This document shows, in pieces, positions 9,086 to 60,849 of a stretch of DNA of 64,000 nucleotides. The stretch's first letter is position 1, and each line of letters starts with the position of its first letter. The notes beneath the pieces were generated by a model. It was not told the DNA's origin. It was given only the letters and a program-made list of their open reading frames with translations, and made no database searches. Source of the stretch: Escherichia coli. GTDB taxonomy: Bacteria; Pseudomonadota; Gammaproteobacteria; Enterobacterales; Enterobacteriaceae. The stretch lies in NCBI RefSeq assembly GCF_016026235.1, contig NZ_CP065613.1. The stretch is one strand, 5' to 3'. A program made the translations under genes and the position numbers.

Positions 9086-9103
9086 AGCGCCTTCTCAATC
9101 ACT

Positions 9104-10705: not shown

Positions 10706-10750
10706 CAACGCTCCCCATCAGGCGGCAATGACCGCGTTAGTAAATACTCG

Positions 10751-20425: not shown

Positions 20426-20431
20426 CCGCTC

Positions 20432-23787
<3,356 letters not shown>

Positions 23788-31863: not shown

Positions 31864-32002
31864 ACGCTTTTCCTTGTGGATCTCAACTCGCCAGCACCTA
31901 TCTTACATGCCGGTCCGTATCAGAGATACTTTTTGAGTGGCTTTGCCGGTGATTAAAAATTAAGGAGGGTGTAACGACAAGTTGCAGGCACAAAAAAACC
32001 AC

Positions 32003-32114
32003 CCGAAGGTGGTTTCACGACACTGCTTATTGCTTTGATTTTATTCTTATCTTTCCCATGGTACCCGGAGCGGGACTTGAACCCGCACAGCGCGAACGCC
32101 GAGGGATTTTAAAT
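32003..32114. repeat. Left direct repeat of the island: terminator-like hairpin plus 56 nt copy of the tRNA-Leu 3' end (32059..32114), att-like
   Basis: About 95% identical to 60482..60601 (the 3' part of intact leuZ and its downstream terminator); tRNA identity is lost after ...GAGGGATTTTAAAT at 32114. Confidence 0.85.
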
Positions 32115-33773: not shown

Positions 33774-33869
33774 CATGCTTGACAACTTAATAGGGGCACC
33801 CCCCGGTAGACGATCCTGCCCTATAGTTGGACTGACCCCACCCCGGTAGACGATCCTGCCCTATAGTTT

Positions 33870-34053: not shown

Positions 34054-36396
34054 TGTTCTTATTACCTTTAACTAATTATGCCAATTCAGACTCAAACGCT
34101 GCATCATTCGCTTCAGCCTCTGCGCCATCAATTAATGCCAAGACTCGGTCAAGAAAGCGTTGCGCTTCGTATACATCTGTTGCTTGCCGCAGATAATGAG
34201 GTATTCGTTCAACAAACTCGGAACGTGATAAAGGCTGATGTTCCAGCAAAGCCTCAAGCATTGCGGGCCGCAACAAACGACGATCAGCATCAACATTAGG
34301 AAGCTCAACCTCAATGACATGTGTGGCAAAATACTTAAGTTGCTCCTTAAGCCCCAAATTGGGCATAAGAGAATCAATTGAGTCAGACGCCACTTCAGCG
34401 CTTGACTCAATCGTTTCGACATATTCACAGGAAGGTACAACAACGTCTGGAGCCAATGTTTTAAGCTCATGGAGTTTACGGATAATCGGAGATAGAACCT
34501 CATCAGGATTACTGAACCAATCAGTGGACCAAATGCGGCTAATTCTCCAACCCAAACGCTCCAGAACCTCTTGACGCAAACGGTCACGATCACGAGCAGA
34601 TTTAGCTGAGTGATAAGCCGCACCATCACACTCTATGCCCATTAAGTAACGGCCAGGACAACCTGGATCTTTCACAGCTAGATCAATAAAGAATCCTGCA
34701 ACCCCTACCTGAGGTTCACACTCAAACCCAGCGTGATTGAGTGCTTCCATTACAGCAACCTCAAAGTCACTATCTGGAGCCCTGCCGGTATGCGTTGTGA
34801 GGGAATCTAGTTTGCCACTTTCGGCAAACTGTAAAAAACCTTTCAACGAAATAACACCAAGTTTACTGGTTTCACTCGTCAATACATCTTCAGAACGCAT
34901 TGAACTAAACACATGCATCCGTTTTTTTGATCGAGTGAAAAGCACATTCAAGCGACGCCAGCCAACATCGGAATTGATAGGTCCAAAGCGTTGATAAACC
35001 TTTCCACCATGCTCAGAAGGTCCATAGGTAAAGGAAATAAAGATTACATCACGCTCATCCCCTTGAACGTTCTCAAGGTTTTTCACAAAAAGTGGCTCTT
35101 CCATGGCATATAAGCCATCGATTGCATCGTTAAATTCAGGGCGATTTCGGCGCAATTCATCGATAGCGCGCTCAATTTGATCGCGTTGCTTGGAACTCAT
35201 GGCCACTACCCCGAGTGACTCACCCGGCCGGTGTTGCGCATGATGAAGTACGGCCTCAGCAACTGCTTGGGCTTCTTCAATATTGTGTTGATTGGAGAAC
35301 CGACCTTTTGACACATAGGTAAATTTAATCCCATACTCTGGAGACTCAGCATTTGGGGAAGGGAATATCACCAAATCACTGTTATAAAAATGGCGGTTAG
35401 AGTATGCAATCAACTTTTCATGTCGTGAACGATAGTGCCAACGCAAACGTCTCATAGGAAACAGTGGCAAAGCAGCATCCAAAATGCTGTCAGTATCACT
35501 TAAAGCCGCGGCATCATCGTCATCTTCTCCGTCGGCACTTCGATCAAAGAAACTGGTTGGTGGTAGCTGTTTCGGGTCACCAACGACCACTAGTTGCTTG
35601 CCCCTCGCGATGACACCCAATGCATCCTCTGGCTTCACCTGAGACGCTTCGTCCATCACCACCAGATCAAATTCCATTCGTCCAGGTTCTAGGTAATGAG
35701 CTGCTGACATTGGCCCCATCATGAAACAAGGTTTAATTGCAACCAGCGCATTACATGCACGGTTAACCAATTGCCTAATTGGAATATGTCTGGTTTTTTT
35801 ACCCAACTCATTTTTGATCAAAGCTAGTTCTGTATATTCACTTTTCTTACCACCAGAATTCCCTTCTGGTATATTTCGGTAAGCAATTTTTGCTGCAATC
35901 CGCTGACGTTGTAATTCAATCAGTTTTTTGTCGTAATCTTTAAATGACTTCTGCAAAGCATTGCGCTGTGAGCCGGAAACTCTCATCAATTCAGGGTGGA
36001 TGTGAATAACCTCCCGCGCCAGCTGGTCATGAATTGCTAATGCTAAACCCAATTCAACTTTTTCAATCGGGAGCGAGCCCGCAAGTACAGCACTCCAGAT
36101 TCGCTGCAATCCATTTTCATGCATCTGCTCGTAACAACGAATAAAGTTAACCCACCCGTTCAACCAACGGGGTTGCTGTATTGCTCTTTCGTTGCGCTCG
36201 ATTAATGTATTAAGAGAACCATCAGTCGACTTGAGCCACTGACTCCGCTCTAACTTTGTTTCTAGCGCATATAACTCAGCATTTTTAATCTGTTCATTCC
36301 ATTTCGAAACTATTTCCCCACCATCACGACATAGTAAATCGGGTGATGCTGCCAACTTACTGATTTAGTGTATGATGGTGTTTTTGAGGTGCTCCA

Positions 36397-36672
36397 GTGG
36401 CTTCTGTTTCTATCAGCTGTCCCTCCTGTTCAGCTACTGACGGGGTGGTGCGTAACGGCAAAAGCACCGCCGGACATCAGCGCTATCTCTGCTCTCACTG
36501 CCGTAAAACATGGCAACTGCAGTTCACTTACACCGCTTCTCAACCCGGTACGCACCAGAAAATCATTGATATGGCCATGAATGGCGTTGGATGCCGGGCA
36601 ACTGCCCGCATTATGGGCGTTGGCCTCAACACGATTTTACGTCACTTAAAAAACTCAGGCCGCAGTCGGTAA
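36397..36672 (+). CDS. insA: IS1 protein InsA
   Basis: [43 protein letters not shown]... matches InsA. Confidence 0.9.
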
Positions 36673-37094
36673 CCTCGCGCATACAGCCGGGCAGTGACGT
36701 CATCGTCTGCGCGGAAATGGACGAACAGTGGGGCTATGTCGGGGCTAAATCGCGCCAGCGCTGGCTGTTTTACGCGTATGACAGTCTCCGGAAGACGGTT
36801 GTTGCGCACGTATTCGGTGAACGCACTATGGCGACGCTGGGGCGTCTTATGAGCCTGCTGTCACCCTTTGACGTGGTGATATGGATGACGGATGGCTGGC
36901 CGCTGTATGAATCCCGCCTGAAGGGAAAGCTGCACGTAATCAGCAAGCGATATACGCAGCGAATTGAGCGGCATAACCTGAATCTGAGGCAGCACCTGGC
37001 ACGGCTGGGACGGAAGTCGCTGTCGTTCTCAAAATCGGTGGAGCTGCATGACAAAGTCATCGGGCATTATCTGAACATAAAACACTATCAATAA
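36591..37094 (+). CDS. insB: IS1 transposase InsB reading frame (expressed as InsAB by -1 frameshift)
   Basis: ORF matches InsB (...[21 protein letters not shown]...); overlaps insA in the -1 frame. Confidence 0.85.
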
Positions 37095-40000
37095 GTTGGA
37101 GTCATTACCAGTAAATCGTAATCACTACCACTAGCCAAATGTCTGATCTGGGTAGCCAAGGATACGCAATTTATCTTATCAACCAGTTGCTCGGCAAAAT
37201 TCAGCGTGTCGTTAATAGTGTCTAACGTCAGTTGATTATTTTTATACGCACCGCAAGCCAATGGGGTTAATTGTAAAAACGCCCCTAACTGTAACGAGTC
37301 ATTTTCAAGGGATATCTGAAGATCGTTTATGTTTTGCAAAATCTCGGAGGAATGAGTCATCTGCTCTAATGATATATCTGGATTGATAAACCATCCCTGC
37401 AAGGCAATGAGAGTATTCCGCACCTGTCGGTAAGATTGCATCAATACACCTTGCTCACCTAACCAAGATGCATGTTCTTCCAACAAGCTAGAAATACGCG
37501 GTAATAACTTAGCCTCGTGCTCGACCCGTTTAACCAAAGTCATTAATCTTGAGCTAATCTGCGATTTCTCGATTAAATGCACACCTTTGATAATCTCACC
37601 ATCTAGGTTAATTAATCCAGAGCCTATCGCAACTCGCTTTCCAAAACCTATCCCGTAACAAGCTCGGACCTTCTTGTACCAATCACGCAATAACATGAGT
37701 TGTTCACAGTCGGTGTCCAACCCTCGGAATGCATTACCAAGTTGATTACCAAAGTCACTTTGTTCAAACCGTTGTAACAGCTCCGAATACTTGAGCAAAT
37801 CAGCTGAGCAGCGTTTTAACTCAGCAAACTTAGTGTCAGGCTTACGAGATTGCGCCATGAGCAGTGCCTTGGCACTACGCCAATCACTCTTAAACCATGC
37901 AAATAATCCCCCTTGCTGGATAACAGCAACGGCATGCGCGAGCATCTCTTGGGAAGGCAACTGGTCCAATTGATACAAAGTAGATAGACCATCTCTTAAA
38001 GGACGCAATGTTTCGATTTGACACATTAAGTCGCGCAATACTGCATCGATATCATCATCATCAAAAAGAGGATCTCGAACTCTAATAAGCTCAGTCGGTA
38101 AAGCACCCAGAATCGACAACAACTCAGAGCAGAATAGCAATCCAGCTTGCGAATCATCGATATACGAAGCAATACCATCTGGCAAAGCATTTTTGAAATC
38201 GTTTAATTGCGCATAAATAGATGATAACTCATCATGAATTGATTGGATGGATTCAAGCCACCTGACCAAATCACGTAAAGTGAAATCCTCTGCTGCACCA
38301 TATTTTTCCAGCTCTTCACGAGGAAAGTCACACGATTGTCCTTGTTCTAAAAGTCGTAGCTTTTGAGGCTCGATAACCTGGCTCAAGGCCACATAATGAC
38401 CTTGTAGCAACTCGAACCTATCTAAATAGTGACGCACCCGTGCAATGGCATCGAGTGAATCTAGCTCACTAAGTGCTGGGAAATGCTCTGAACCACACAA
38501 CACTGGAAGATTCGACTGATCTTCTACCAATTGCTCAATATATTGAAGCGTATTAAGGCTTTCGCCTTCTAACGCCCACTTATCTACATATTCTTGATAG
38601 CTATGTTGAAAGTCGATAATTGATGTCTGCCAAGTTTGTAGCAAATCGACTATACGAGCGCTGTCAAACAATTGAATTTGTGTGTTATTCACACCGCTCC
38701 AAGGGTGCTCATATATTTCTGCATTAGCCCCCACCTGCTCACGAACCTCTTTGTAGATGCGGCTAAACTCTACTATTTGGTCACGCAGCCGTAATTGGGT
38801 CACTTTATCCAACTGCTTCCCGGAAAGGTTTTCGATATGAAGTGCTGTTGCATCAATATCTAATTTGTGACGATAACGTGTTGCACCACTCAAAATCTGA
38901 TGGATCGTTTTGCCTGTTTGCGCCCATTGGTTATTGATCAATGCGGCATATTCATTGAGCTGCTGCTTAAGATCTTCATAACGCAAAATCTGAGCATCAA
39001 TCTCTTCCATAGTAGGCATGGTCGCCTGACTCACCAAGCGAGCATTAATATCATCCAGCACCTTGCGCTTATGAGTTTTATGACTGTGCAACTCTAAGCA
39101 AAATTGACCTAGCCCCGCACGATCCAAGCGACGTTTGACGACCTCCAGTGCAGCCATCTTCTCTGCCACAAACAGGACTTTCTTACCGTTGAGCAGAGCT
39201 GCTGCAATCAAGTTGGTGATCGTTTGTGATTTGCCACTACCAGGAGGGCCCTCAATGACTAAGTTTTGACCACGGATAGCATCGATCAACGCACTGTGCT
39301 GCGAGCTATCCGCATCATCGATTAGTGGAACCTTGTCATGAATATCAGGGTAACTATCGATGCAGTACTCATGCTGACCGAAGCCACCAGGTAAGCCGGA
39401 ATTCTCTTGACCACAGCTCTGACTGGTGAAAAAGCGACGAATTACTTCATGAGACAATATATTGCGCTTGTCACAAGGCCAGCGGGCAGGATCGAGGTCA
39501 AGATACATCATCATCTTGCCAAAATTGAGCAAGCTAAGTGCACCATAACGTTTCACAGACCATTTAGGTTTGTGCTGCTCTACAACCTTCTTCACCGAAG
39601 CAAAATAAGACTCTGGAGTTTCCTCTTCATTGAACAAAGGAAGAGCGAGGCCAAAGTCAGCCTGAAGTTTTTCCTTCAAAGAGAGATTGGGCAAAATATC
39701 TTCACCCGTGTAATAAAGTTGAAACTTGTAAAGACCATCCTTCGGATCTAATTTTCCTCGTTCACATCTCACCGGAATTGTAAATAACGGTGCATAACGT
39801 GCCTTTTCAGAGGAATCGCTTTCATACCACTCAAGGAACCCTAACGCCAAATACAAGATGTTGGCGCCACTCTCCTCCAAAGCAGTTTGAGCCTTACCAT
39901 AGATGGCGCGCAAACAAGCTTCCAGTTCATTTGGATAAAGCAGAGCCTGTATCCGATTATCGTCATGAGAGGAATTGGAAGAAGATATACTAATCTCATT

Positions 40001-44264: not shown

Positions 44265-44276
44265 GCCTCCTGCGGT

Positions 44277-44887
<611 letters not shown>

Positions 44888-48958: not shown

Positions 48959-49007
48959 TAATCCTTTTCTTTCTGGCGCTACTCGCTACTGGTCACATGA
49001 AGATTCA

Positions 49008-49691: not shown

Positions 49692-50914
49692 TCGGCAACC
49701 GCCTCATCGACCTTAACACGACGTTTGCCAGTCAATAGCTGTTGCATCAGGGCTTTTTTCTCATCTCTCAGGCAGGCGAGTTTTTTCTCCAGCGTGGAGA
49801 TTTCGGTGTCAGCAGCGGACAGCACGGCGGCGATTTTTTGTTGCTCTTTAATAAATGGGCAAGAAAAGCTTAAAGTTTCAAAATCTTTCTTGGAAAGTTC
49901 TAAAAATGTTGAGCCAGATGATTTTTTGATCATCTCATTTGTGTTCATTTGCAACAAATAATAAATAAATTCGATATTAAACCCTTCATTCGGAATGATG
50001 TTTTTAAAACCTTGATTGGTACAAATTTCCGATGTCGAAATTGCTAAAGCACCAATGGTAGCTCTTGTACATACCATCAAACTACCTTTTGGCAAAAGAA
50101 CAGCTGAGCTATTTAGTAATCCCGCAGGAGTAATTTTTCTACTAGTATTGCTAACGAACCTACCCGTTAATGCAGTAACATCAGTTGGGGTAAGCCATAG
50201 AATATCGCCTTCCCAATACATGGCCATGTTTGTATCAGGTGTTCCACCGGATACAACTTTGCCCATTTGTATTAGTTTAGTAATTTTCCACTCCCCACTA
50301 AACCTCACCCCATTCTCATCCAACAACCGTTTATTCCCGGTAAGCAATTGCTGCATCAGGGCTTTTTTCTGCTGTTGACTGTTGGCGAGAAGGCTTTCCG
50401 TCACCGAAATTGCCTTATCCCAGGCGGTCAGAATTTGAGATATTTTATCTTGTTCACAAATAGCAGGAGTTTTTATGTTTAACGCTCTAATATCAGAAAG
50501 GTTAATTCTAGAAAAGGTAGAACCACCTGCACTTTTTGCTATCTGTCGCTGGACTAAATCTGATTGTAATGTGTAGTAAATAAACCGCCAATCTGCATGG
50601 ATTGCTTTAATTAAGACAGTGTCTTGCCCTAATACAAATGGCTTTTTGGAATCCACATAGCTAACAACACCGACAGACTGGTTACGACTCATAACCAAAT
50701 CACCTTGTTCAACAACACAGTGATCCATCAGAGAGCGATATTCTTCTTCTGTAACTCTTTTTACAGGTGAAATCAGATCTAAGGCTCCCCATTTTATCGT
50801 CCCCGGTGAGACAAGTGGTATTCCCGATTTAACGTACTCAGGAGTCCTGTGTTTGCAATCGATTATCGACGCAACCGATGAGAGTTTCTGAGATGACCAC
50901 CCCTTAGGAATCAT
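49688..50914 (-). CDS. hsdS: Type I restriction-modification specificity subunit HsdS (408 aa)
   Basis: Two variable target-recognition domains separated and followed by the conserved repeat [11 protein letters not shown]; start overlaps the hsdM stop. Confidence 0.88.
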
Positions 50915-52427
50915 AACCCAACTCCTTCAGATACCCCGCCATCTCCGTTTCCAGCTTCGCCAGTTCCGCCTTCAGTTGCTCGCGTTCGGCGCGTACGGCC
51001 AGCAAATCAATCTCGTCTTCTTCTTCAAAGGTATCGACATAGCGCGGAATATTGAGGTTGTAATCGTTGTCCTGAATTTCCTTCAGGCTGGCAAGATAGG
51101 CGTATTTCTCGACGTTATCGCCATCACGGTAGGTCTTGACGATTTTCTTAATGTTTTCTTCGCTAAGCTGGTTCTGGTTTTTACCTGCCTTGAATTCACG
51201 GCTGGCATCGATAAACAGCACCTTGTCATCAACTTTCTGCTTTTTGAAAATCAGAATCGCAGCCGGAATCCCCGTACCGTAGAACAGTTTTTCCGGCAGA
51301 CCAATTACCGCATCCAGCAAATTTTCGTCGATCAGTTTCTGGCGAATTTTACCTTCGCTGGAGCCACGGAAAAGCACACCGTGTGGCACAACTACGCCCA
51401 TACGGCCAGTTCCCGGTTTCAGGGTTTCGATCATATGCGAGATAAAAGCGTAATCTCCTTTAGTCTTCGGCGGTACACCGCGACGAAAACGGCCAAACTT
51501 ATCGTTCTCGGCCTCGTCATGGCCCCACTTATCGAGGCTGAACGGTGGGTTAGCGGTCACGATATCAAACAGCATCAGGTCGCCATTTTTATCGAGCAGC
51601 TTCGGGTTGCGAATGGTATCGCCCCACTCGATTTTATGGTTGTCTTCCCCGTGCAGGAACATATTCATTTTCGCCAGCGACCACGTAGAACCGATCGCTT
51701 CCTGACCGAACAATGCATAGTTACGACTATCATGCCCGGAGACAATTTTACGCCCACACTTCATCAATAATGAACCGGAACCACAGGCTGGATCGCAGAT
51801 GGTATCACCCGGTTGCGGATCGAGCAGTTCTGCAATCAGGTCCGAAACTTCCGGCGGGGTATAGAACTCCCCGGCTTTCTGCCCACCGCTGGCGGCAAAG
51901 TTTTTGATCAGGTATTCGTAAGCATTGCCGATAACGTCCAGCGTACCGACACGACTCGGCTTCAGGTTGAGATCTTCACCGGCGAAGTCTTCCAGTAGCT
52001 GACGAAGGATGGTGTTTTTCTGTTTTTCTTCGCCAAGACGATCGGTGTTAAACGAAATATCCTGGAACACGCTTTTCCCGGCATCTTTCAGTTTGGTTCC
52101 GTTGGCTTCTTCGATTGCATGCAGAGCCTGATCGATACGCTCACCGTTACCCGGCTCATGGCGGCGTTCGTACAGCGCATAAAAGCTGGCACTTTTTGGC
52201 AGTACAAAACGCTCGTTGGCCATCATCGCTTCAATCAGTTCCGGCACATCGCCATACTGTTCTTTGTATTCGTCATAGTGATCCTGCCAGACATCTGAAA
52301 TGTACTTGAGGAACAGCATGGTAAGGATAAAGTCTTTATAGGTATCAGCACTGATGGTGCCACGGAACGTATCACACGCGGCCCACAGGGCTTTGTTGAT
52401 CGTGTCCTGACTGATTTTGTCGTTCAT
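50904..52427 (-). CDS. hsdM: Type I restriction-modification N6-adenine DNA methyltransferase subunit HsdM (507 aa)
   Basis: AdoMet-binding and catalytic motifs (DPACGSGSLL, NPPF). Confidence 0.9.
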   Translation of the reverse strand: MNDKISQDTINKALWAACDTFRGTISADTYKDFILTMLFLKYISDVWQDHYDEYKEQYGDVPELIEAMMANERFVLPKSASFYALYERRHEPGNGERIDQALHAIEEANGTKLKDAGKSVFQDISFNTDRLGEEKQKNTILRQLLEDFAGEDLNLKPSRVGTLDVIGNAYEYLIKNFAASGGQKAGEFYTPPEVSDLIAELLDPQPGDTICDPACGSGSLLMKCGRKIVSGHDSRNYALFGQEAIGSTWSLAKMNMFLHGEDNHKIEWGDTIRNPKLLDKNGDLMLFDIVTANPPFSLDKWGHDEAENDKFGRFRRGVPPKTKGDYAFISHMIETLKPGTGRMGVVVPHGVLFRGSSEGKIRQKLIDENLLDAVIGLPEKLFYGTGIPAAILIFKKQKVDDKVLFIDASREFKAGKNQNQLSEENIKKIVKTYRDGDNVEKYAYLASLKEIQDNDYNLNIPRYVDTFEEEDEIDLLAVRAEREQLKAELAKLETEMAGYLKELGYDS

Positions 52428-52730
52428 GAATCATCCTGGTCTGAAGAAAAAGCTAGCGATGCAGGGCTTTGCATCTTAAAAATTTCGGTAAATGATACCG
52501 TAAGATGCCTCCCCTGACACGCCAATATCGCAGCATTCAGGTTTGCATCATCCCCGTAATATCGACATGAGACAGACTGACACAACCTGGCTCGTCACTC
52601 GCTAAAAACCAATTATCTTAGTAAGATAGCATCCATATTAGCCATGGTGTAAAACTGCCGTTGGGGTAATGATGATCCATATATCACCCGTTCTGGTGTG
52701 TGAAGCTGACATCATCCATAATCGGCAACG

Positions 52731-53966
52731 TTGATGCCCTTTGATAGTAATGATGACCGTCAATGTGATTCCCCTGCTGACTGGAGGTCTCCGGATAGTA
52801 TGAGTATTACCAACTGCGTTATCGGCCCACTTTACGATGAGCAAATAAAAAAAACACTTATGTATGCTGACCATAAATTCAAGCGGCTAATGAATACACG
52901 AATGTCGTTACTCGAACATTTATCACCCCACTATGACTTATCTTCCATGTTCAGCTATGAGTTGGAGGGAAGAGTTTTTCGGATTAAATTGATCAAGCCT
53001 GAGATTAAATTATCTCGCCAGCAGTTGATCTTCTCCTCACTCTTTTTAGAGCAAGATTTTCTAAAAGAATATAAAAAACACATCTCAAATACTCTACAAA
53101 AAACAATCAAACAGTGCATTAAAAAATACAAACAAAAAATCAAAATCGAGCCTTCTATTTTAGATTACATATCAGCGTCACCCCGCAATACGTCGAGTTA
53201 TGTATTACATGAGATAGTTTCTCAATGTGAACATTGCGATGAAATTCGCAATATTAAAAATGATATATTGCTTGATGAACTAACGTTGAATGGCCGGATC
53301 ACTAACATTTCAAAATACATTAAAAACAGTCAAGATAAAATCGTCGAACATATAGAGTTCTGCACTCATAAACTTGTCAATATAAGTCGTAAGAATCGTC
53401 ACATTTTCAACAGCACCACAATCTCTGGCAGAAAACCCAACATCACTGGTGTTTTACTTTGCCTTTCAGAATTGATAAGCAACCTGCATATTTACCCAAC
53501 TGAAATTAATAATATAAGCAATGCCATAATATTAAGCATTGTATACTCTGTACTTCAACATCTTCAATCCGGAAGAAAAACAGAAAAAACAAAAACCTCT
53601 CCAGCACTGGATTTCATCCCCACCATCATCGCACCTCATGTTTTCTACCTGGCGAAACGCGAAAAATCCTCTCAATATAAATACATTGAAAAAGAATATC
53701 TTCTCGGCCAGTTACTTATATTTTTGATGTATAAAACAGTTTACTACTCGATTCATAACATCAGGGTAAGCCGTAAGCATTTCTATAACGATATAAAACC
53801 AAAATTAATGATACTAAAAAAAGAAAGCTTATTAAGCACCAATTTCATGAAAAATCGAAGAGAGATTAGTGGTGAAGTCTTTGGTGATGTTGGTAGTATT
53901 GAGGCTGATTTTCGAGAAATCAGCACATTGATTCATCGGCGAAAGGCTCTGTTTATTTCCTTTTAA
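52731..53966 (+). CDS. AT-rich hypothetical protein (411 aa), no recognisable motif
   Basis: Long ORF in a strongly AT-rich segment; Lys/Ile/Asn-rich product; start codon uncertain (the first ~25 codons are GC-richer than the rest). Confidence 0.55.
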   Translation: MMPFDSNDDRQCDSPADWRSPDSMSITNCVIGPLYDEQIKKTLMYADHKFKRLMNTRMSLLEHLSPHYDLSSMFSYELEGRVFRIKLIKPEIKLSRQQLIFSSLFLEQDFLKEYKKHISNTLQKTIKQCIKKYKQKIKIEPSILDYISASPRNTSSYVLHEIVSQCEHCDEIRNIKNDILLDELTLNGRITNISKYIKNSQDKIVEHIEFCTHKLVNISRKNRHIFNSTTISGRKPNITGVLLCLSELISNLHIYPTEINNISNAIILSIVYSVLQHLQSGRKTEKTKTSPALDFIPTIIAPHVFYLAKREKSSQYKYIEKEYLLGQLLIFLMYKTVYYSIHNIRVSRKHFYNDIKPKLMILKKESLLSTNFMKNRREISGEVFGDVGSIEADFREISTLIHRRKALFISF

Positions 53967-54368
53967 TCTTTAGAGAACACTATATCATCGTGAAGCAGAG
54001 CTAATTTCAGCCTTGCATAGATCATTATCAATGCCATAGACAGTGTTAATCATATGACATCGTTCCGGTATTGATACTGATTATCAGGCCTTGGTTTTAT
54101 GTAATTTAAACACCACCATCTCTGAAACCTCACAGTGCTCATATTTTAACCATAAAAACTAACCGATTTACACCCGCCACACACCGTCATAACTTATTGT
54201 ATTTAAATAGCTATAAGCCTCTAACTCACTGATTACACCATTAAATTCAAGCCATATCCTTACGCAGATTCAAGCTTGCCCCTGCTGCCATTCACGTTTT
54301 AGGATTACCTCGCTAACACGACATGCTACTTTTTAAATCAGTGTAATAATTCAAACGAGGATAAAATT

Positions 54369-55499
54369 ATGTTCGAGAAAATGAAAAACAATGTAACCCG
54401 TATGCCGGGGAATTTAACAAAACTTAATCAATACCAAAAAGACATTGATCACCTGTCTAAACTATTTTCTGAACAGCAATTACTGGAACTAATGACGACT
54501 ACCGAATCCGATCAAATATTGCAAATGAAGCCTGCTGTAGATATTCTTCATGTACTATCTCCATCAGCATCTACTGCTAAGCATATCAATTTTTTTCAGC
54601 ACGTCCCAGTGCTCGAACAATGGTTAAAAAAGGAGTGCACTGCCTTTAATTTACTGGCAGTACATTTCTATTCACAGCAATCCCGTAAAAATGTAATTCC
54701 GAAAGAAATCTGTATGCTACTGGATGCATTTATTGAAACTGAACTTTCATCTGCGGTTAATGGTAATAATAATGCCGAACTCCTTTCTTGTTTTCAAAAC
54801 ACGCTGGATAAAATGTGCAATACACTAACATTTATAGACCACACAGTTACGGAACAATCAGGTCAAGTAGCAATGCTTGATTTCAGCGCAAAAATGCATG
54901 AATATACTGTTGAAATCAGGACCTTTTTGAAGTCTGAATACTGGCTAAACAAACTACCTAAGGATATTAACATTCCAGCCATTGACCTATCCTGGCTTGT
55001 GTTTTGTTACTTTTGCTCTGAATATCTTTTTGTATTTATTCAAACAACGCTCAATACAATGAAGGCAGGAAAAATCATTCGTGATAACTACCTTTATCAT
55101 CCTAAAATGATTGCATTGATCATTTTATCTATGCTGCCTTATGAAGTCATTCATAACGATGGATCACTGAATAAGTTTAAAACGCCTTTAACCAGCCCTG
55201 ATGAGTTCATAATCAAATCTATTTGCATTAAAGGTAAGCAAAACACTACAGGGCATAAAAAAGATATAGAACAATTGCTTCGTAAGACATATATCTATAT
55301 TGCATTACTCTTAAACCCTGAGTGGGCACCATCTTCCAAGGAGTTGATTTCCTTTTTATCAGGAAAGTCCTCAGTGATAAGTGGTTCACTCAACTTCCAG
55401 TCAACCTCCAGTGGTCTGGGTGTTCAAACAAACAATATAACTCTTCTTAAGAATGAGGTTTACTTCGAAAAAATAGCGAACAAGATCATGAAACTGTAG
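54369..55499 (+). CDS. AT-rich hypothetical protein (376 aa), no recognisable motif
   Basis: Long ORF in an AT-rich segment; RBS-like GAGGA upstream of the ATG. Confidence 0.55.
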   Translation: MFEKMKNNVTRMPGNLTKLNQYQKDIDHLSKLFSEQQLLELMTTTESDQILQMKPAVDILHVLSPSASTAKHINFFQHVPVLEQWLKKECTAFNLLAVHFYSQQSRKNVIPKEICMLLDAFIETELSSAVNGNNNAELLSCFQNTLDKMCNTLTFIDHTVTEQSGQVAMLDFSAKMHEYTVEIRTFLKSEYWLNKLPKDINIPAIDLSWLVFCYFCSEYLFVFIQTTLNTMKAGKIIRDNYLYHPKMIALIILSMLPYEVIHNDGSLNKFKTPLTSPDEFIIKSICIKGKQNTTGHKKDIEQLLRKTYIYIALLLNPEWAPSSKELISFLSGKSSVISGSLNFQSTSSGLGVQTNNITLLKNEVYFEKIANKIMKL

Positions 55500-55642
55500 T
55501 TTCTTAATATAATGGCGACATGGAATTGTGTTGCCATTATATCCGAATCTGCGTTTTTTCACCTGATGAACTGTGAAAGCTGTAACTGGCAGACTATAAC
55601 CTCACATCGTATTTTTCCAGTGTCATTTACAGGAGAAATACG

Positions 55643-56779
55643 ATGCCTATTCTGGATCTGCGTTTCAGCAACAAATCAATTCACCAACTTCCACATCCCC
55701 TCACGGGTTGTCAGGAATACCGTGATATTCACTGCCAAAACCTGCGTGCTCTGGTGTATCCCAATCGGATCACGCTGGCCTTTCGTGCCACTATAAACAA
55801 TCAGCGTATATATGAAACCCTGGGTCAGTTCCCTCAGCTCTGCGTTGAGGATGCCCGTCAGCATGTGATGAAACTGCTTGCTGATAAAAATCGTCTTGCG
55901 GTTCAGTCCCGTCGATTCACTGTGGAACAGGCCATCAATGACCTGTGGCTACCGGATTTGCAGTTGTATAAAAAGAGTCCTCAGTCAGAGTTGTCAAAAC
56001 TCAACCTCTACGTTCGCCCGTTCTGGGGCAAGCGGCAACTTCGCGACATCACGGCAGGAGAACTAGAACAATATGCTGCTGGCTTACGGGAAAAATTACG
56101 TCCGTCAACAGTAAACCGTATCCTCGCAATATTGTCCAAAATATGCTCTCTGGCAGTACGTGCTGGATGGATCACACATTCCCCGATGTCACATGTCCGC
56201 TATCTGAAAGAAAATAACATTCGCTATCGCACACTGTCAGCGACAGAAATCCCGCGCTTTATTGACGCGGCAACAGCGCTGCAAACACCGGCAGCTGATT
56301 CTATATTGCTTGCTCTTTATACGGGGATGCGTATTGGTGAGGTATGTACCCTGAAATGGGAGTACTGGCACCCGGATATGCATCAACTCATACTGCCTGA
56401 TACAAAGTCCGGACACCCTTTCACCTGCCCACTTGCACCTCCAGCCATTGCAGTTGTCCAGTGCCAGCAGGACCTGATGCTCAGCAAAACTTACATTTTT
56501 CCACAACTAACCGACAATGCCCGCCCTCTGGCATATCCGCGTGCAACCTTTGCCCGTATTTGCCGGGATGCCGACATTGATAACCTGCGGATGCATGACC
56601 TGCGCCGTACCTTTGCCACCCGGGTACTACAGGCGACCGGGGATATTGCAATCGCTTCCCATCTGCTAAATCACCATTCACTCACGGCGACCCGTCGCTA
56701 CGCTTTTCACAATGCAGCGACATCACACGCAGTGGTTTCTCAGGTCATAGAAAGTTATGACACAAAAATGAACCTATGA
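55643..56779 (+). CDS. int: Tyrosine recombinase / phage-type integrase (378 aa)
   Basis: C-terminal catalytic motifs (MRIGEVCTLKW, HDLRRTFATRVL, LNHHSLTATRRYAFH) and an N-terminal arm-type region (FSNKSIHQLP). Confidence 0.85.
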   Translation: MPILDLRFSNKSIHQLPHPLTGCQEYRDIHCQNLRALVYPNRITLAFRATINNQRIYETLGQFPQLCVEDARQHVMKLLADKNRLAVQSRRFTVEQAINDLWLPDLQLYKKSPQSELSKLNLYVRPFWGKRQLRDITAGELEQYAAGLREKLRPSTVNRILAILSKICSLAVRAGWITHSPMSHVRYLKENNIRYRTLSATEIPRFIDAATALQTPAADSILLALYTGMRIGEVCTLKWEYWHPDMHQLILPDTKSGHPFTCPLAPPAIAVVQCQQDLMLSKTYIFPQLTDNARPLAYPRATFARICRDADIDNLRMHDLRRTFATRVLQATGDIAIASHLLNHHSLTATRRYAFHNAATSHAVVSQVIESYDTKMNL

Positions 56780-56921
56780 TCTGTGATTCGTGATTGATGC
56801 AACACTCGTTTAAGGACGGTATTGTCATTGCATGCTTCTGCAGGGCCCTGCATTAAGTCATCACAGAATGTGGATTGATATTAAATCCGCGTGGCTTCTT
56901 ATTCTCTGAAACCGGAGGTTT

Positions 56922-57050
56922 ATGTATTTAACCATTAAGCAGTTCGCAGAAAGATTTAATCTTTCTGCATCCACGGTTGCGTCAGATATATCGCGCAACC
57001 CCGGAAAACTCCCGCCCTTCATCAGAATTGGGCGGGCTATACGATTCTCT
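56922..57050 (+). pseudogene. AlpA-family helix-turn-helix regulator/excisionase-like gene truncated by IS1
   Basis: MYLTIKQFAERFNLSASTVASDISRNPGKLPPFIRIGRAIRF resembles AlpA-type HTH proteins; the reading frame runs into the IS1 terminal repeat at 57051. Confidence 0.6.
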
Positions 57051-57818
57051 GGTAATGACTCCAACTTACTGATAGTGTTTTATGTTCAGATAATGCCCGA
57101 TGACCTTGTCATGCAGCTCCACCGATTTTGAGAACGACAGTGACTTCCGTCCCAGCCTTGCCAGATGTTGTCTCAGATTCAGATTATGTCGCTCAATGCG
57201 CTGAGTGTAACGCTTGCTGATAACGTGCAGCTTTCCCTTCAGGCGTGATTCATACAGCGGCCAGCCATCCGTCATCCATACCACGACCTCAAAGGCCGAC
57301 AGCAGGCTCAGAAGACGCTCCAGTGTGGCCAGAGTGCGTTCACCGAAGACGTGCGCCACAACCGTCCTCCGTATCCTGTCATACGCGTAAAACAGCCAGC
57401 GCTGACGTGATTTAGCACCGACGTAGCCCCACTGTTCGTCCATTTCAGCGCAGACAATCACATCACTGCCCGGTTGTATGCGCGAGGTTACCGACTGCGG
57501 CCTGAGTTTTTTAAGTGACGTAAAACCGTGTTGAGGCCAACGCCCATAATGCGTGCACTGGCGCGACATCCGACGCCATTCATGGCCATATCAATGATTT
57601 TCTGGTGCGTACCGGGCTGAGAGGCGGTGTAAGTGAACTGTAGTTGCCATGTTTTACGGCAATGAGAGCAGAGATAGCGCTGATGTCCGGCAGTGCTTTT
57701 GCCGTTACGCACCACGCCTTCAGTAGCGGAGCAGGAAGGACATCTGATGGAAATGGAAGCCACGCAAGCACCTTAAAATCACCATCATACACTAAATCAG
57801 TAAGTTGGCAGCATTACC
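57051..57818 (-). mobile_element. IS1 (768 bp), divergent isoform, no target site duplication
   Basis: Terminal repeats GGTAATGACTCCAACTTA (57051..) and GGTAATGCTGCCAACTTACTG (reverse complement at 57818); insA 57488..57763 and insB 57066..57569 differ at several residues from the IS1 copy at 36342. Flanking 9-mers differ (CGATTCTCT vs CATCTTCAA). Confidence 0.9.
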
Positions 57819-57935
57819 CATCTTCAAATGGGAGTACCAGCTCTGTTTTCAACAGACTCATTACTGACTCCGGAAGAAGGAGCGACGGCAGGTCTTGCCA
57901 GTTCGAGACAAATTTCATTGAATAATCCTCATAAA

Positions 57936-57972
57936 CAAAAAACCCGATACGATTAACGTATCGGGGTTTTTA
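57936..57972. terminator. Bidirectional rho-independent terminator
   Basis: Hairpin CCCGATACG-ATTAA-CGTATCGGG flanked by A-run and T-run. Confidence 0.6.
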
Positions 57973-58013
57973 TACATCCGCATAACTATTATTTACAGTT
58001 ATTGGTTTTCTAT

Positions 58014-58256
58014 TTAAATTCTTTCATAATACCCACAGTCCATACAGATAAGCACTGGCGCATTATTTCTTTCACACTGTTCAAGGAATCCAAATAGTTT
58101 TTTAATAGCCTTAATAATTTCTTTCAGTATTTCAGGTAAAAACTCCAGGCTAATATACCCAGAGCGTTTATTATCGGTTATCGATGGCAGTTTTCCTGCT
58201 GAACTTATCAATGTATTACAACTGCCACACTGTGGGCATTTTAAATGCATCCTCAT
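58014..58256 (-). CDS. Small zinc-ribbon protein (80 aa), AT-rich
   Basis: Two CxxC pairs (CPQCGSC ... CMDCGYY). Confidence 0.5.
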   Translation of the reverse strand: MRMHLKCPQCGSCNTLISSAGKLPSITDNKRSGYISLEFLPEILKEIIKAIKKLFGFLEQCERNNAPVLICMDCGYYERI

Positions 58257-58286
58257 TCTCCATATTTATAGTTTGCTAAAAAGTAG

Positions 58287-59516
58287 TCACATCTGCTTCG
58301 TAGCCGCAGTATTCAGAAGCAGGTCAGTCACTCCCTGCCCTGTCTGACGCATACGTTCCGGTGTTAATTTCGCGTAACGTTCTGTACTCTGAATACTGGC
58401 ATGCGCCAGTTGGGCTTTAACGTCATACAGGCTGAATTGACCACTCGAAACCAGTAAAGAGGCAACAGAATGACGTGTGGTGTGAAAACAGACTTCATTC
58501 TTGTCTATACCGCACTGTGCCAGTATTTTTTCATATGCCCATCGGGGTTCCGATATCGGTTTTCCATTATCCTTAATGGCGAACAGATACGGATTACTGC
58601 CAACTCGTGGGATAGCATCAATAATCGATAATGCGGCATCGCTTAGATATACCGTCCGACTGCGACCATTTTTTGTATAAGGAATGAACAGAGTACGATT
58701 GGCCCGGTCGATATGTTCATGCCTGACATTAAGCATTTCTGATTTGCGTGTACCGGTTAACAACAACATGGCTATCAATCCCCCGGCAGCTTTGTTGGGA
58801 TATTGGGTAGCAGCGTCAAGAATGCGCCTGATCTCATCAGCATCAAAAAAGCGCGTCCGCTGATTATTCTCTTTCAGTAAAGGGATCTTATCGGCTTCAT
58901 TCTTTTCCAGCACATCCTGTCGCAACGCATAACGCCCCATCGTTTTCAGAATAGCAAGGGCTCTGTTACAGGTAGACGGCGCATATTGCTGCCCGTGAAT
59001 ACGCCCCTCCAGCATGTCAAACAGCACCTGTTGTATCTCTCTGGCCCTGAGATCGCAGTAACGTATCTTTCCCAGACGAGGTTCAATGTATTGCGTGAAA
59101 CGCTGAACATCCTTATCCCAGGACTTTTTATGGCGTTTGATGAACGGAACATAGGTCTGGTGAAAAAACTCACTAAGTGTTGGCATCGCACGATAATTAT
59201 CGCGTTCTGCTTTAGGGTCATTTCCCAGTGCAATCGCCTCCTTATGACGGCGAGCTATCTGGCGAGCTGTCCCCACATCAATTTCAGGGAATCTGCCAAT
59301 ACTGATACTTTTTTTGGTACCGTGGAATGTGTAGCGCAGGAGGAAACGTTTGTTACCCGTTCGACCTGAGAGACATTTGAGGCCAATAACTTCGGTATCA
59401 GATACCTCAAGCTCTGTAGATCTGGTATCTGTGTTTGCCGGAAGGGCTTTGATGGATGAATTGGTGAATCGGAAGGATTTTTGCATATTTATCCTCATGT
59501 ATCTGATTGATATCAT
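58287..59516 (-). CDS. int: Tyrosine recombinase / P4-type integrase (about 400 aa; start may be a downstream Met)
   Basis: Arm-type N-terminus (FRFTNSSIKALP), catalytic motifs (LLLTGTRKSEMLNVRHEHI, HTTRHSVASLL, STERYAKL); located close to the tRNA-Leu end of the island. Confidence 0.85.
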   Translation of the reverse strand: MISIRYMRINMQKSFRFTNSSIKALPANTDTRSTELEVSDTEVIGLKCLSGRTGNKRFLLRYTFHGTKKSISIGRFPEIDVGTARQIARRHKEAIALGNDPKAERDNYRAMPTLSEFFHQTYVPFIKRHKKSWDKDVQRFTQYIEPRLGKIRYCDLRAREIQQVLFDMLEGRIHGQQYAPSTCNRALAILKTMGRYALRQDVLEKNEADKIPLLKENNQRTRFFDADEIRRILDAATQYPNKAAGGLIAMLLLTGTRKSEMLNVRHEHIDRANRTLFIPYTKNGRSRTVYLSDAALSIIDAIPRVGSNPYLFAIKDNGKPISEPRWAYEKILAQCGIDKNEVCFHTTRHSVASLLVSSGQFSLYDVKAQLAHASIQSTERYAKLTPERMRQTGQGVTDLLLNTAATKQM

Positions 59517-59566
59517 GGAGATAATATATATCTGAAGGTGTTTTTATTACGGGGCAGGATTGAAGA

Positions 59567-60307
59567 ATGGAAAAGCTATTAGACGCGTACAAACGGATAT
59601 TACAGGAAGTTGACGCCCAGTCATTTAACCTGAATGAGGATAAATACTCAGGCGTCTTTTTACCCGTGCCCTTTGAAGAATACTGGCACTCACCGGTAAA
59701 AATCATACTGGTTGGACGTGAAACCGCTGGCTGGAATACTCTGAATGGTAAGAACACGATATCACGGGTGCTGGGACTTATACCTGACGTCACCATCGGG
59801 CAGGTGGTTGGAGAGGCTGTAGATCGTTACAGGAATCATCTTCCGGTACAAAATGATGGCACCACGAACCTCAAATCACGTAGCCGCTTCACGCAGTATC
59901 ATTTCCGGCTGGCCCGGGAGCTTAATATTCCTCCTCAGGCTATCGTGTATGCCAATCTACTGGCGTGGGATTACGACGGACTGACCCCTCTCAATCGCCC
60001 TCAAAATGAAGTGCAGGAAGTTATATTAGCCTCGCTGAAGCTGCTGGCGGTACAAATTAAACACCTTGAGCCTGATTTCATCATCTTTGCATCCGGAGCC
60101 CGGAGAACAGACTACATCATAAAACAGGTGCTTACTGAGCTGGGCGGCTATGAGACTTCTGCAGTCATTCCGGGGAAGCTATGGGAGTTCAAAACAGGTA
60201 ATGCAATCTGTTTCAGAATTGCCCATCCACGGGCTATGCGCGGACACCAGAAGTACAGAGATGAGGTGATTGCACGAATTAAGCAACTTTGTACTCAGGG
60301 TGGCTAG
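59567..60307 (+). CDS. Hypothetical protein (246 aa) between integrase and leuZ
   Basis: Long ORF with RBS-like sequence; no confident family assignment from sequence alone. Confidence 0.55.
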   Translation: MEKLLDAYKRILQEVDAQSFNLNEDKYSGVFLPVPFEEYWHSPVKIILVGRETAGWNTLNGKNTISRVLGLIPDVTIGQVVGEAVDRYRNHLPVQNDGTTNLKSRSRFTQYHFRLARELNIPPQAIVYANLLAWDYDGLTPLNRPQNEVQEVILASLKLLAVQIKHLEPDFIIFASGARRTDYIIKQVLTELGGYETSAVIPGKLWEFKTGNAICFRIAHPRAMRGHQKYRDEVIARIKQLCTQGG

Positions 60308-60481
60308 AGCATTACAGCTTGCTCAGCGGCCCCCTTCCCGGAAGCGTACCGGAAAACAGGCAAAGCGGCCTGGTTCTCTATGCTGGAAGCGACACGTTCG
60401 ATTCGGCATTGCCAGGCTGAAGATTGCAGCTCATCGCACCCCGTGAGCACAGGATATGCACAGGACATGAATTTCAGGCAC

Positions 60482-60601
60482 AAAAAAACCACCCGGAGGT
60501 GGTTTCACGACACTGCTTATTGCTTTGATTATTCTTGTCTTTCCCATGGTACCCGGAGCGGGACTTGAACCCGCACAGCGCGAACGCCGAGGGATTTTAA
60601 A
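60482..60601. repeat. Right direct repeat of the island (leuZ 3' part plus downstream terminator hairpin)
   Basis: About 95% identical to 32003..32114. Confidence 0.85.
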
Positions 60602-60633
60602 TCCCTTGTGTCTACCGATTCCACCATCCGGGC
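60547..60633 (-). tRNA. leuZ: tRNA-Leu (anticodon UAA)
   Basis: Reverse complement reads GCCCGGATGGTGGAATCGGTAGACACAAGGGATTTAAAATCCCTCGGCGTTCGCGCTGTGCGGGTTCAAGTCCCGCTCCGGGTACCA. Confidence 0.95.
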
Positions 60634-60645
60634 TCGGGAAGAAAA

Positions 60646-60719
60646 TGGAGGCGCGTTCCGGAGTCGAACCGGACTAGACGGATTTGCAATCCGCTACATA
60701 ACCGCTTTGTTAACGCGCC
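60646..60719 (-). tRNA. cysT: tRNA-Cys (anticodon GCA)
   Basis: Reverse complement reads GGCGCGTTAACAAAGCGGTTATGTAGCGGATTGCAAATCCGTCTAGTCCGGTTCGACTCCGGAACGCGCCTCCA. Confidence 0.95.
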
Positions 60720-60773
60720 AAATTCTTCAGGCCTTTCAGCCAGACATCCGCTTGACGCCGATGTCTTTTAAAC

Positions 60774-60849
<76 letters not shown>

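What the first reader, a model, noticed from the sequence alone, without database searches (positions are those of the whole stretch)
55643..57818. Integrase plus AlpA-like regulator truncated by a divergent IS1 lacking a target duplication
The AlpA-type HTH gene downstream of the first integrase reads straight into an IS1 terminal repeat. The flanking 9-mers of this IS1 differ (CGATTCTCT vs CATCTTCAA), so it probably mediated a deletion or recombination rather than a simple insertion. It is also a different IS1 isoform from the copy at 36342 (several InsA/InsB substitutions), implying independent acquisitions.
Basis: seen in the sequence. Interest (0 to 1): 0.35.

Follow-up and report, generated by a model that had tools for sequence, protein, structure and literature searches.

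The report
IS1 deletion scar inside a pipolin
An ordinary IS1 insertion sequence sits in an E. coli "pipolin" island next to the leucine tRNA gene leuZ. A 7.8-kb deletion ending exactly at the IS1 has cut the island's excisionase gene and removed its signature DNA polymerase, a textbook IS-mediated deletion rather than anything new.

Summary

- **The element:** window 57051-57818 is an intact 768-bp IS1. It is the IS1F isoform, 5 nt different from K-12 IS1F.
- **No target duplication:** its flanks are CGATTCTCT and CATCTTCAA. The other full IS1 (36342-37109, IS1A isoform, 67 nt different) has a perfect 9-bp duplication.
- **Truncated gene:** the small HTH gene after the integrase keeps 43 of 66 codons and then reads into the IS1 end.

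The surrounding 28-kb island, bounded by 133-bp direct repeats at tRNA-Leu (leuZ), is an E. coli pipolin. The integrase is the pipolin's "IntP2" recombinase and the HTH gene is its excisionase.

- **IS-free relative L022:** it matches the window almost perfectly on both sides, and there the two flanks lie 7,832 bp apart. The missing DNA holds the excisionase 3' end, a 212-aa orphan, piPolB, a 108-aa orphan, a WYL regulator, a DUF726 protein, DUF2787, a 177-aa orphan and most of a 123-aa orphan.
- **Intermediate L020:** it has the identical IS1 and the identical right junction, but its left junction lies in DUF2787.

The window therefore equals that state plus a further 6,686-bp deletion starting exactly at the IS1 end. 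The best reading is stepwise IS1 adjacent deletion. Recombination between two IS1F copies is the main rival. Known biology, low interest.

The parts
55643..56779 (+). Tyrosine recombinase (378 aa), the 'IntP2'-type second integrase of the pipolin core; intact
   Evidence: Pfam Phage_integrase E = 4e-21 plus Phage_int_M. The identical protein lies in complete pipolin cores in L019-L026. The IntP2-plus-excisionase arrangement is described in PMC11551731.
56922..57050 (+). 5' part (43 of 66 codons) of the excisionase-type HTH_17 gene. The ORF runs on into IS1 and stops at 57131.
   Evidence: Residues 1-43 are identical to the intact L020 protein. The intact orthologue hits HTH_17 at E = 5.9e-9 over residues 2-54. 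TIGR01764 'excise' scores 24.1 bits, below its cut-off.
57051..57818 (-). Intact IS1, isoform IS1F. The insB-proximal end (IRR) is at 57051-57073 and IRL at 57796-57818. insA is 57488-57763 (-), the insB frame is 57066-57569 (-), and the A6C frameshift motif is present.
   Evidence: It differs by 5 nt from K-12 IS1F and 3 nt from the PK8217 copy, is 100% identical to the L020 copy, and differs by 67 nt from the IS1A-type copy.
57050..57051 (.). Left deletion junction. DNA equivalent to L020 11409-18094 (6,686 bp), or L022 11409-19240 (7,832 bp), is missing here.
   Evidence: blastn of the window against L020 and L022.
57819..57918 (-). First 33 codons of a 123-aa pipolin orphan gene, cut by the IRL end of IS1. 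This right junction is shared with L020.
58014..58256 (-). Small zinc-ribbon-like ORF (78-80 aa), conserved in the pipolin core; intact
   Evidence: Called as a 78-aa gene in L019 and L022. Weak Zn_Ribbon_YjdM hit.
58287..59516 (-). P4/SXT-type integrase ('IntSXT') next to attR; intact
   Evidence: Arm-DNA-bind_3 E = 2.9e-14 and Phage_integrase E = 8.5e-24. Annotated as a 399-aa site-specific integrase in relatives.
59567..60307 (+). Conserved 246-aa pipolin gene between IntSXT and attR
   Evidence: Present at this position in all relatives. No Pfam hit.
60472..60602 (.). attR direct repeat overlapping the 3' end of tRNA-Leu (leuZ, 60547-60633)
   Evidence: Direct-repeat families D4 and D5; tRNAs.
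31982..32114 (.). attL direct repeat, next to yecA; left end of the island
   Evidence: yecA and tyrP synteny with FDAARGOS_943.
36342..37109 (+). Second full IS1, isoform IS1A, a simple insertion in the hhe defence gene with the 9-bp duplication AGTAAATCG (comparison copy)
   Evidence: hhe is uninterrupted in FDAARGOS_943.
44512..44887 (-). 376-bp IS1A-type fragment, an old scar shared with the S30 and FDAARGOS_943 pipolins

Best explanation
The locus is the conserved core of an E. coli pipolin, a self-replicating integrative island at tRNA-Leu. An IS1F copy has eroded this core.

Shown:
- In IS-free relatives the core gene order is: IntP2, excisionase, 212-aa orphan, piPolB, 108-aa orphan, WYL regulator, DUF726 protein, DUF2787, 177-aa orphan, 123-aa orphan, small ORF, IntSXT, 246-aa gene, attR.
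- In the window's lineage an IS1F sits with its IRL end inside the 123-aa orphan gene.
- In the intermediate L020 that IS1 already lacks a target duplication and has replaced 1,146 bp, up to the middle of DUF2787.
- In the window the same IS1 and the same right junction are kept, but a further 6,686 bp starting exactly at the other IS1 end (IRR) are gone. The deletion ends after codon 43 of the excisionase gene.

Inferred: the deletions were made by IS1 transposase through intramolecular replicative transposition, known as 'adjacent deletion'. An IS end attacks a nearby target on the same molecule. The intervening DNA is lost as a circle, and the IS stays joined to the new target without a duplication.

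Consequence (shown): the island keeps both att sites, both integrases and its defence cargo (type I restriction-modification system, two DUF262 genes, and hhe, which is itself split by IS1A). It has lost piPolB, the WYL regulator, DUF2787 and a functional excisionase.

Inferred from that: it is probably a replication-dead, poorly excisable remnant.
For: - IS1 ends and the absent duplication.
- IS-free reference L022: window 46000-57050 matches L022 358-11408 with 1 mismatch, and 57819-59715 matches L022 19241-21137 with 3 mismatches. The flanks are therefore 7,832 bp apart in L022.
- Intermediate L020: window 46000-57050 matches L020 359-11408 with 0 mismatches. Window 57051-60093 (IS1 plus right flank) matches L020 18095-21137, 3,043 of 3,043 nt identical. 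The L020 left junction is GACACGCCC|IRR inside DUF2787.
- The L020 state occurs in a second assembly, GCA_001907535.1.
- IS1-C is not a chimera with the other isoform in the window. Its 67 differences from IS1A are spread along the whole length.
- The transposase frames, the A6C frameshift motif and both terminal repeats are intact.
- Pipolin identity: the 866-aa protein of relatives is about 100% identical to a UniRef entry named 'Primer-independent DNA polymerase PolB'. The core gene set and the tRNA-Leu att repeats match PMC7385651 and PMC11551731.
- Stepwise growth of IS-adjacent deletions without duplications is documented in E. coli evolution lines (PMC11708052).
- Other strains carry independent IS-anchored deletions in the same core: PK13, the PK8217 type and HH194M.
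Against: - The final sequence cannot distinguish a transposase-made adjacent deletion from RecA recombination between two directly repeated IS1F copies. Both leave one intact IS1 with unrelated flanks.
- No ancestor with a simple insertion (CATCTTCAA on both sides) was found.
- The window's own junctions were not found in any other genome, so the last step rests on a single sequence.
- Loss of mobility and replication is inferred from gene content, not tested.
Confidence: 0.62

Rival explanations
1. Homologous recombination between two IS1F copies. In an L020-like ancestor a second IS1F inserted, in the same orientation, into the excisionase gene with a normal 9-bp duplication. RecA-dependent recombination between the two 768-bp repeats then deleted the 6.7 kb between them. 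This left one IS1 carrying the left flank of one copy and the right flank of the other.
For: It gives exactly the observed product. IS1F-type copies are abundant in this species and lineage: copies at least 99% identical occur in 3,926 records, and the sister strain FDAARGOS_943 reached the 40-piece limit. Recombination between IS copies is a recognised cause of missing duplications (PMC11708052).
Against: It needs one more event than an adjacent deletion. No genome among 5,426 complete E. coli genomes, nor any GTDB species representative, carries an IS1 at the left junction. L020 itself already lacks a duplication, so at least one earlier deletion at this same IS1 must be explained anyway.
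Confidence: 0.28
2. The window's IS1 is inherited from the widespread 'PK8217-type' pipolin, in which an IS1F sits between the 108-aa orphan and a truncated DUF726 gene. Two further deletions, one on each side, would then have produced the window.
For: 248 complete E. coli genomes carry that IS1F-bearing configuration. Its IS1 differs from the window's by only 3 nt. Both window junctions lie outside the PK8217 junctions.
Against: The window's flanks are 98.5-98.9% identical to PK8217. They are 99.8-100% identical to L020, L022 and FDAARGOS_943, which have an intact WYL/DUF726 region. All contigs that were read and encode the identical IntP2 protein carry the WYL gene. L020 supplies an exact intermediate with a 100% identical IS1. 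The IS1F isoform is too common for 3 nt to indicate shared descent.
Confidence: 0.04
3. Assembly artefact. The source genome really has two IS1F copies with the 6.7-kb segment between them, and the assembler collapsed the repeat.
For: IS copies are classic collapse points. The window's exact configuration was found in no other genome.
Against: The 64-kb window runs without a break through three IS1 sequences, an IS110-family element and another IS, which is typical of a long-read or finished assembly. A collapse would also require the unobserved second copy.
Confidence: 0.05

Closest known systems
IS1F of E. coli K-12 MG1655 (IS1 family)
   Same: 768 bp, identical terminal repeats, 5 nt differences, the same insA/insB layout and the A6C frameshift site.
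   Different: K-12's insB7 is a pseudogene, whereas the window copy has open frames whose products are identical to those of the PK8217 copy, which RefSeq annotates as WP_094106546.1. The window copy has no target duplication because of flanking deletion.
IS-mediated adjacent deletions (classical IS1 deletions near gal, from my own knowledge; IS150 and IS903 examples in PMC11708052)
   Same: The IS is retained intact. One junction is unchanged from the precursor. The deletion starts exactly at an IS terminus. There is no duplication. The deletion grows in steps, 1.1 kb and then 7.8 kb.
   Different: It is inferred from natural isolates rather than observed in real time. The role of transposase versus RecA is not resolved.
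E. coli pipolins at tRNA-Leu (PMC7385651, PMC11551731)
   Same: Same integration site and about 130-bp att repeats, IntSXT next to attR, IntP2 followed by an excisionase, and a defence cargo of a type I restriction-modification system and hhe.
   Different: The hallmark piPolB gene and the core genes WYL and DUF2787 are absent. By the piPolB-based definition it is not a pipolin but a remnant of one.
'Truncated' Enterobacterales pipolins with a deletion between IntSXT and piPolB (PMC11551731, Fig. 3B pipolin 2; example G1/2, locus L001)
   Same: Erosion of the same core region.
   Different: That form keeps piPolB, loses part of IntSXT and has no IS at the junction. The window keeps both integrases, loses piPolB and has IS1 at the junction.

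Membership tests
IS1 family insertion sequence (isoform IS1F) | About 768 bp, bounded by imperfect ~23-bp terminal inverted repeats GGTRATG...CCAACTTAYTGAT | tested here: met
   Ends at 57051-57073 and 57796-57818, 768 bp, none expected by chance.
IS1 family insertion sequence (isoform IS1F) | insA and insB' frames linked by an A6C programmed -1 frameshift site | tested here: met
   insA is 91 codons and the insB frame is open. TTAAAAAAC lies at element position 305. The protein frames are identical to those of the PK8217 copy, which RefSeq annotates as IS1 family transposase WP_094106546.1.
IS1 family insertion sequence (isoform IS1F) | Near-identity to the named reference isoform | tested here: met
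   5 of 768 differences from K-12 IS1F, against 68 from K-12 IS1A.
Simple IS1 insertion | 8-10-bp (usually 9-bp) direct duplication of the target | tested here: not met
   CGATTCTCT versus CATCTTCAA, with no repeat in any register from 5 to 14 bp. The control copy at 36342 has one.
IS-mediated adjacent deletion | Compared with a precursor, the IS and one junction are unchanged, and the missing DNA starts exactly at the other IS terminus | tested here: met
   Against L020, the IS1 and right flank are 3,043 of 3,043 nt identical. L020 11409-18094 is missing, starting at the IRR terminus.
IS-mediated adjacent deletion | Made by transposase (intramolecular transposition), not by recombination between two IS copies | not testable with these tools
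   Both routes give the same sequence. No two-copy intermediate was found.
Pipolin | Encodes a primer-independent family-B DNA polymerase (piPolB), the hallmark gene | tested here: not met
   There is no piPolB in the window. The gene (866 aa, UniRef name 'Primer-independent DNA polymerase PolB') lies in the segment that is present in L020 and L022 but missing here.
Pipolin | Integrated at tRNA-Leu between att-like direct repeats | tested here: met
   Repeats at 31982-32114 and 60472-60602 overlap the 3' end of tRNA-Leu. This matches PMC7385651.
Pipolin | Gammaproteobacterial core genes IntSXT, IntP2 plus excisionase, DUF2787 and WYL | tested here: inconclusive
   IntSXT-type and IntP2-type recombinases are present and intact. 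The excisionase is truncated. DUF2787 and WYL are deleted. So 2 of the core genes are intact, 1 is broken and the rest are absent.
AlpA family (Pfam Phage_AlpA, PF05930) | Significant match to the AlpA profile | tested here: not met
   The intact orthologue hits only HTH_17 (PF12728, E = 5.9e-9) at E <= 0.01. NCBIfam gives only 'excise' TIGR01764, below its cut-off. RefSeq names it 'AlpA family transcriptional regulator' in some genomes and 'helix-turn-helix transcriptional regulator' in others.

The most novel reading that the evidence does not exclude
The repeated, independent IS-anchored losses of the pipolin core may not be neutral decay. Examples are this window, PK13, HH194M, the 248-genome PK8217 type that lacks WYL, and the IS-less G1/2 type. 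They could instead reflect selection to silence a costly replication and regulation module (piPolB, WYL, DUF2787) while fixing the defence cargo and both integrases in the chromosome. piPolB-less 'domesticated pipolins' would then be a real class that piPolB-based screens cannot see.
Probability: 0.15. Interest if true: 0.4.

Novelty: already known. Interest (0 to 1): 0.2.

Why it matters
It matters mainly for annotation.
- The truncated HTH gene and the unmatched IS1 flanks are now explained base by base.
- The missing 7.8 kb is reconstructed, and the island can be labelled a pipolin remnant.

A modest wider point follows. Pipolins are detected through piPolB, so derivatives like this one are missed. 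This one keeps the att sites, two integrases and the defence genes. The counts below from 5,426 complete E. coli genomes hint that such remnants are not rare. The flanks may also belong to other leuZ elements, however.

| Sequence searched | Genomes with a match |
|---|---|
| piPolB | 296 |
| IntP2-side flank | 399 |
| IntSXT-side flank | 532 |

The chain from L022 to L020 to the window is a clean natural example of a stepwise IS1 adjacent deletion.

Tried and rejected
- **PK8217 as ancestor.** I first took strain PK8217 (L002) as the ancestral state, which implied deletions on both sides of a shared IS1. I rejected this after finding that PK8217's IS1 also lacks a duplication and replaces the WYL gene. 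The IS1F isoform is also ubiquitous, and much closer relatives (L020, L022, FDAARGOS_943) are intact there.
- **S30 as closest relative.** Strain S30 looked closest from 401-bp flanks at 100% identity. Over longer stretches it is only 96-98% identical, i.e. mosaic.
- **Searches for the window's own junctions.** The left junction is absent from 5,426 complete E. coli genomes and from GTDB species representatives. The right junction is absent from the complete genomes. The 69-aa fusion ORF is not on record. The source genome was not identified.
- **Chimeric IS1.** A recombinant between IS1A-type and IS1F-type copies was excluded.
- **piPolB confirmation.** The solved-structure search and the NCBIfam scan for piPolB gave nothing. 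Pfam gave only a sub-threshold DNA_pol_B_2 hit. The identification rests on a source name for a near-identical protein and on synteny with published pipolins.
- **L020 junction gene look-up.** The first look-up of the 65-aa truncated DUF2787 gene at L020's left IS1 junction failed because that gene uses an ATT start. Repeating it with M as the first residue succeeded.
Full report
**1. What is in the sequence**

An IUPAC search for the IS1 terminal repeat finds five ends in the window, with none expected by chance.
- 36342 and 37109 bound a full copy, here called IS1-A.
- 44887 is the end of a 376-bp fragment.
- 57051 and 57818 bound the copy in the finding, here called IS1-C.

IS1-C is exactly 768 bp and lies on the minus strand. 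Its insB-proximal end (IRR) is at 57051 and its IRL at 57818. insA (57488-57763), the insB frame (57066-57569) and the A6C frameshift motif are all intact.

The 9-mers flanking IS1-C are CGATTCTCT and CATCTTCAA. They match at 2 of 9 positions, and no register from 5 to 14 bp gives a repeat. IS1-A serves as an internal control: it is flanked by AGTAAATCG on both sides.

ORF 56922-57131 begins as a small HTH protein and crosses the IS1 boundary at 57050/57051. Compared with the intact 66-aa orthologue it keeps residues 1-43 and then acquires 26 residues encoded by IS1. The upstream ORF 55643-56779 is a tyrosine recombinase.

**2. The two IS1 isoforms**

IS1-C and IS1-A differ at 67 of 768 positions, spread from position 19 to 765. 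This gives 5 InsA and 15 InsB-frame amino-acid changes.

| Copy | Differences from K-12 IS1F | Differences from K-12 IS1A |
|---|---|---|
| IS1-C (57051-57818) | 5 nt | 68 nt |
| IS1-A (36342-37109) | 72 nt | 1 nt |
| 376-bp fragment (44512-44887) | 35 nt | 2 nt |

The K-12 reference copies came, and the comparison is.

IS1-C is therefore not an unusual 'divergent' element. Copies at least 99% identical occur in 3,926 records of the complete-genome E. coli collection, including exact copies at unrelated loci.

IS1-A is a separate, simple insertion. It splits the hhe defence gene, which is uninterrupted in the sister strain FDAARGOS_943.

**3. What the island is**

- tRNA-Leu, tRNA-Cys and tRNA-Gly lie at 60547-60849.
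- A 133-bp direct repeat (31982-32114 and 60472-60602) overlaps the 3' end of tRNA-Leu.
- yecA and tyrP lie to the left of the island, and pgsA and uvrC to the right.

The repeats therefore bound a 28-kb island at leuZ.

Relatives carry, after the integrase and the HTH gene, a 212-aa orphan and an 866-aa protein. That protein has a weak DNA_pol_B_2 hit. It is about 100% identical to a UniRef entry named 'Primer-independent DNA polymerase PolB' (P0013).

The published description of E. coli pipolins fits the island gene for gene (PMC7385651; PMC11551731):
- integration at tRNA-Leu between att-like repeats;
- an IntSXT-type integrase near attR;
- DUF2787 and WYL genes;
- defence cargo such as a type I restriction-modification system and hhe.

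The 'AlpA-like regulator' is the excisionase-type HTH_17 protein. Its intact orthologue hits HTH_17 at E = 5.9e-9 with no Phage_AlpA hit, and TIGR01764 'excise' falls below its cut-off.

**4. Reconstructing the missing segment**

I looked up contigs that encode exactly the window's IntP2 protein. This gave eight loci, and two of them are decisive.

L022 (GCA_901482675.2) has no IS in the core.

| Window | L022 | Mismatches |
|---|---|---|
| 46000-57050 | 358-11408 | 1 in 11,051 nt |
| 57819-59715 | 19241-21137 | 3 in 1,897 nt |

The two flanks of IS1-C are therefore 7,832 bp apart in L022 (11409-19240). That segment holds the following:
- the last 23 codons of the excisionase;
- the 212-aa orphan;
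- piPolB;
- a 108-aa orphan;
- a WYL regulator (HTH_DeoR, WYL and WCX domains);
- a DUF726/LCAT-like protein;
- DUF2787;
- a 177-aa orphan;
- the last 90 codons of a 123-aa orphan.

L020 (GCA_014155105.1) is an intermediate.
- Window 46000-57050 matches L020 359-11408 with no mismatch.
- Window 57051-60093, which is IS1-C plus its right flank, matches L020 18095-21137 at 3,043 of 3,043 positions.
- L020 therefore has the identical IS1 and the identical right junction (IRL|CATCTTCAA).
- Its left junction lies in DUF2787 (GACACGCCC|IRR), and everything from the excisionase to DUF726 is intact.
- Relative to L022 it lacks only 1,146 bp, and it too has no duplication.
- The same state occurs in a second assembly, GCA_001907535.1.

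The window thus equals the L020 state minus L020 11409-18094. That is 6,686 bp beginning exactly at the IRR terminus.

**5. Mechanism**

Three things are shown.
- The element is intact.
- One junction is conserved.
- The deletion starts at the IS terminus and grew in at least two steps, or in two independent single steps from a common simple insertion.

This is the signature of IS-mediated adjacent deletion. PMC11708052 documents, in evolving E. coli, IS copies without duplications whose adjacent deletions 'increased in size over time'. That IS1 makes such deletions by intramolecular replicative transposition comes from my own knowledge of the classical literature (gal-region deletions).

The main rival is a second IS1F insertion in the excisionase gene followed by homologous recombination with the resident copy. 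It yields the same sequence but needs an extra event. No genome with an IS1 at the left junction exists among 5,426 complete E. coli genomes or the GTDB species representatives.

My confidences are:
- about 0.95 that this is a deletion derivative anchored on the IS1;
- about 0.6 for the transposase route;
- about 0.3 for recombination.

Descent from the widespread PK8217-type IS1F is disfavoured. That type is found in 248 genomes and replaces WYL and part of DUF726. The window's flanks match it at only 98.5-98.9%, against 99.8-100% for L020, L022 and FDAARGOS_943.

Assembly collapse cannot be excluded without reads. It is unlikely for a contig that runs through five IS sequences.

**6. Consequences**

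The remnant keeps:
- attL and attR;
- an intact IntP2 and an intact IntSXT;
- the 246-aa gene next to attR;
- the cargo module: a type I restriction-modification system with a YecA-like gene and an M48 peptidase, two DUF262 genes, and hhe, which is itself split by IS1-A.

It has lost the polymerase, the WYL regulator and DUF2787. The excisionase has lost about 11 residues from the end of its HTH_17 domain, which spans residues 2-54 and is cut at residue 43. I infer that the remnant can no longer replicate autonomously and probably excises poorly. This was not tested.

**7. Context in other strains**

The same core is eroded independently elsewhere.

| Strain | Change in the pipolin core |
|---|---|
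| PK13 | An IS1F with other junctions removes IntP2 through piPolB |
| HH194M | IS903B replaces the segment from the IntP2 3' end into DUF726 |
| G1/2 | An IS-less deletion runs from the piPolB 3' end into IntSXT (the 'truncated pipolin' of PMC11551731) |
| FDAARGOS_943 (99.8-100% identical to the window over the compared chromosomal flanks and island DNA) | Two IS600 copies at the excisionase, an IS2 in IntSXT, and an IS1F replacing window 52658-53988 |

Among the 5,426 complete genomes, piPolB is found in 296, the IntP2-side flank in 399 and the IntSXT-side flank in 532. This suggests that piPolB-less relatives are not rare. The flanks may also be shared with other elements integrated at leuZ.

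**8. Verdict**

The result is a precise but ordinary one: a common IS1F copy, a stepwise adjacent deletion, and a known type of island. The only mildly notable point is that the deletion removed the pipolin's hallmark gene. That leaves a remnant which polymerase-based screens would miss.

Interest 0.2; novelty: already known.

Noticed in passing
window 16237-17528: A ~1.3-kb IS4-family-like element interrupts motA relative to the sister strain FDAARGOS_943. Its terminal repeats are CTGAGGAATCCCCAG and TGGGGATCCCTCAG, and its transposase ORF is broken. This suggests a non-motile, IS-rich (Shigella/EIEC-like) lineage.
   Followed up: partly
window 32350-33827: An IS110-family element lies just inside attL and is absent from FDAARGOS_943. 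Its 398-aa transposase hits DEDD_Tnp_IS110 and Transposase_20.
   Followed up: partly
window 34076-40600: The anti-phage helicase gene hhe (DUF4011, 1,911 aa in relatives) is split by the IS1A-type copy at 36342-37109, which has a clean 9-bp duplication. The island's defence cargo is therefore also being inactivated.
   Followed up: partly
window 44264-44887: A 376-bp IS1A fragment next to an IS3-type 'integrase core' fragment is shared with the S30 and FDAARGOS_943 pipolins. It is an old scar at the border between the DUF262 genes and the restriction-modification module.
   Followed up: partly
L002 8001-8768 (E. coli PK8217) and 247 other complete genomes: A separate IS1F, also without a duplication (GCAAAAACA versus CGGAGCCAC), replaces the WYL regulator and part of the DUF726 gene in the commonest E. 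coli pipolin form. Most E. coli pipolins in the complete-genome collection therefore lack the 'core' WYL gene.
   Followed up: partly
window 9234-11581: Two ~72-74% identical direct repeats spaced 1,701 bp apart. By position relative to FDAARGOS_943 these are most likely the paralogous chemoreceptor genes tar and tap. Ordinary.
   Followed up: no
L016 17990-31988 (FDAARGOS_943): A P2-like prophage is integrated in tandem with the pipolin at the same tRNA-Leu site, giving a third att copy, as described for some pipolin hosts. It is absent from the window.
   Followed up: no
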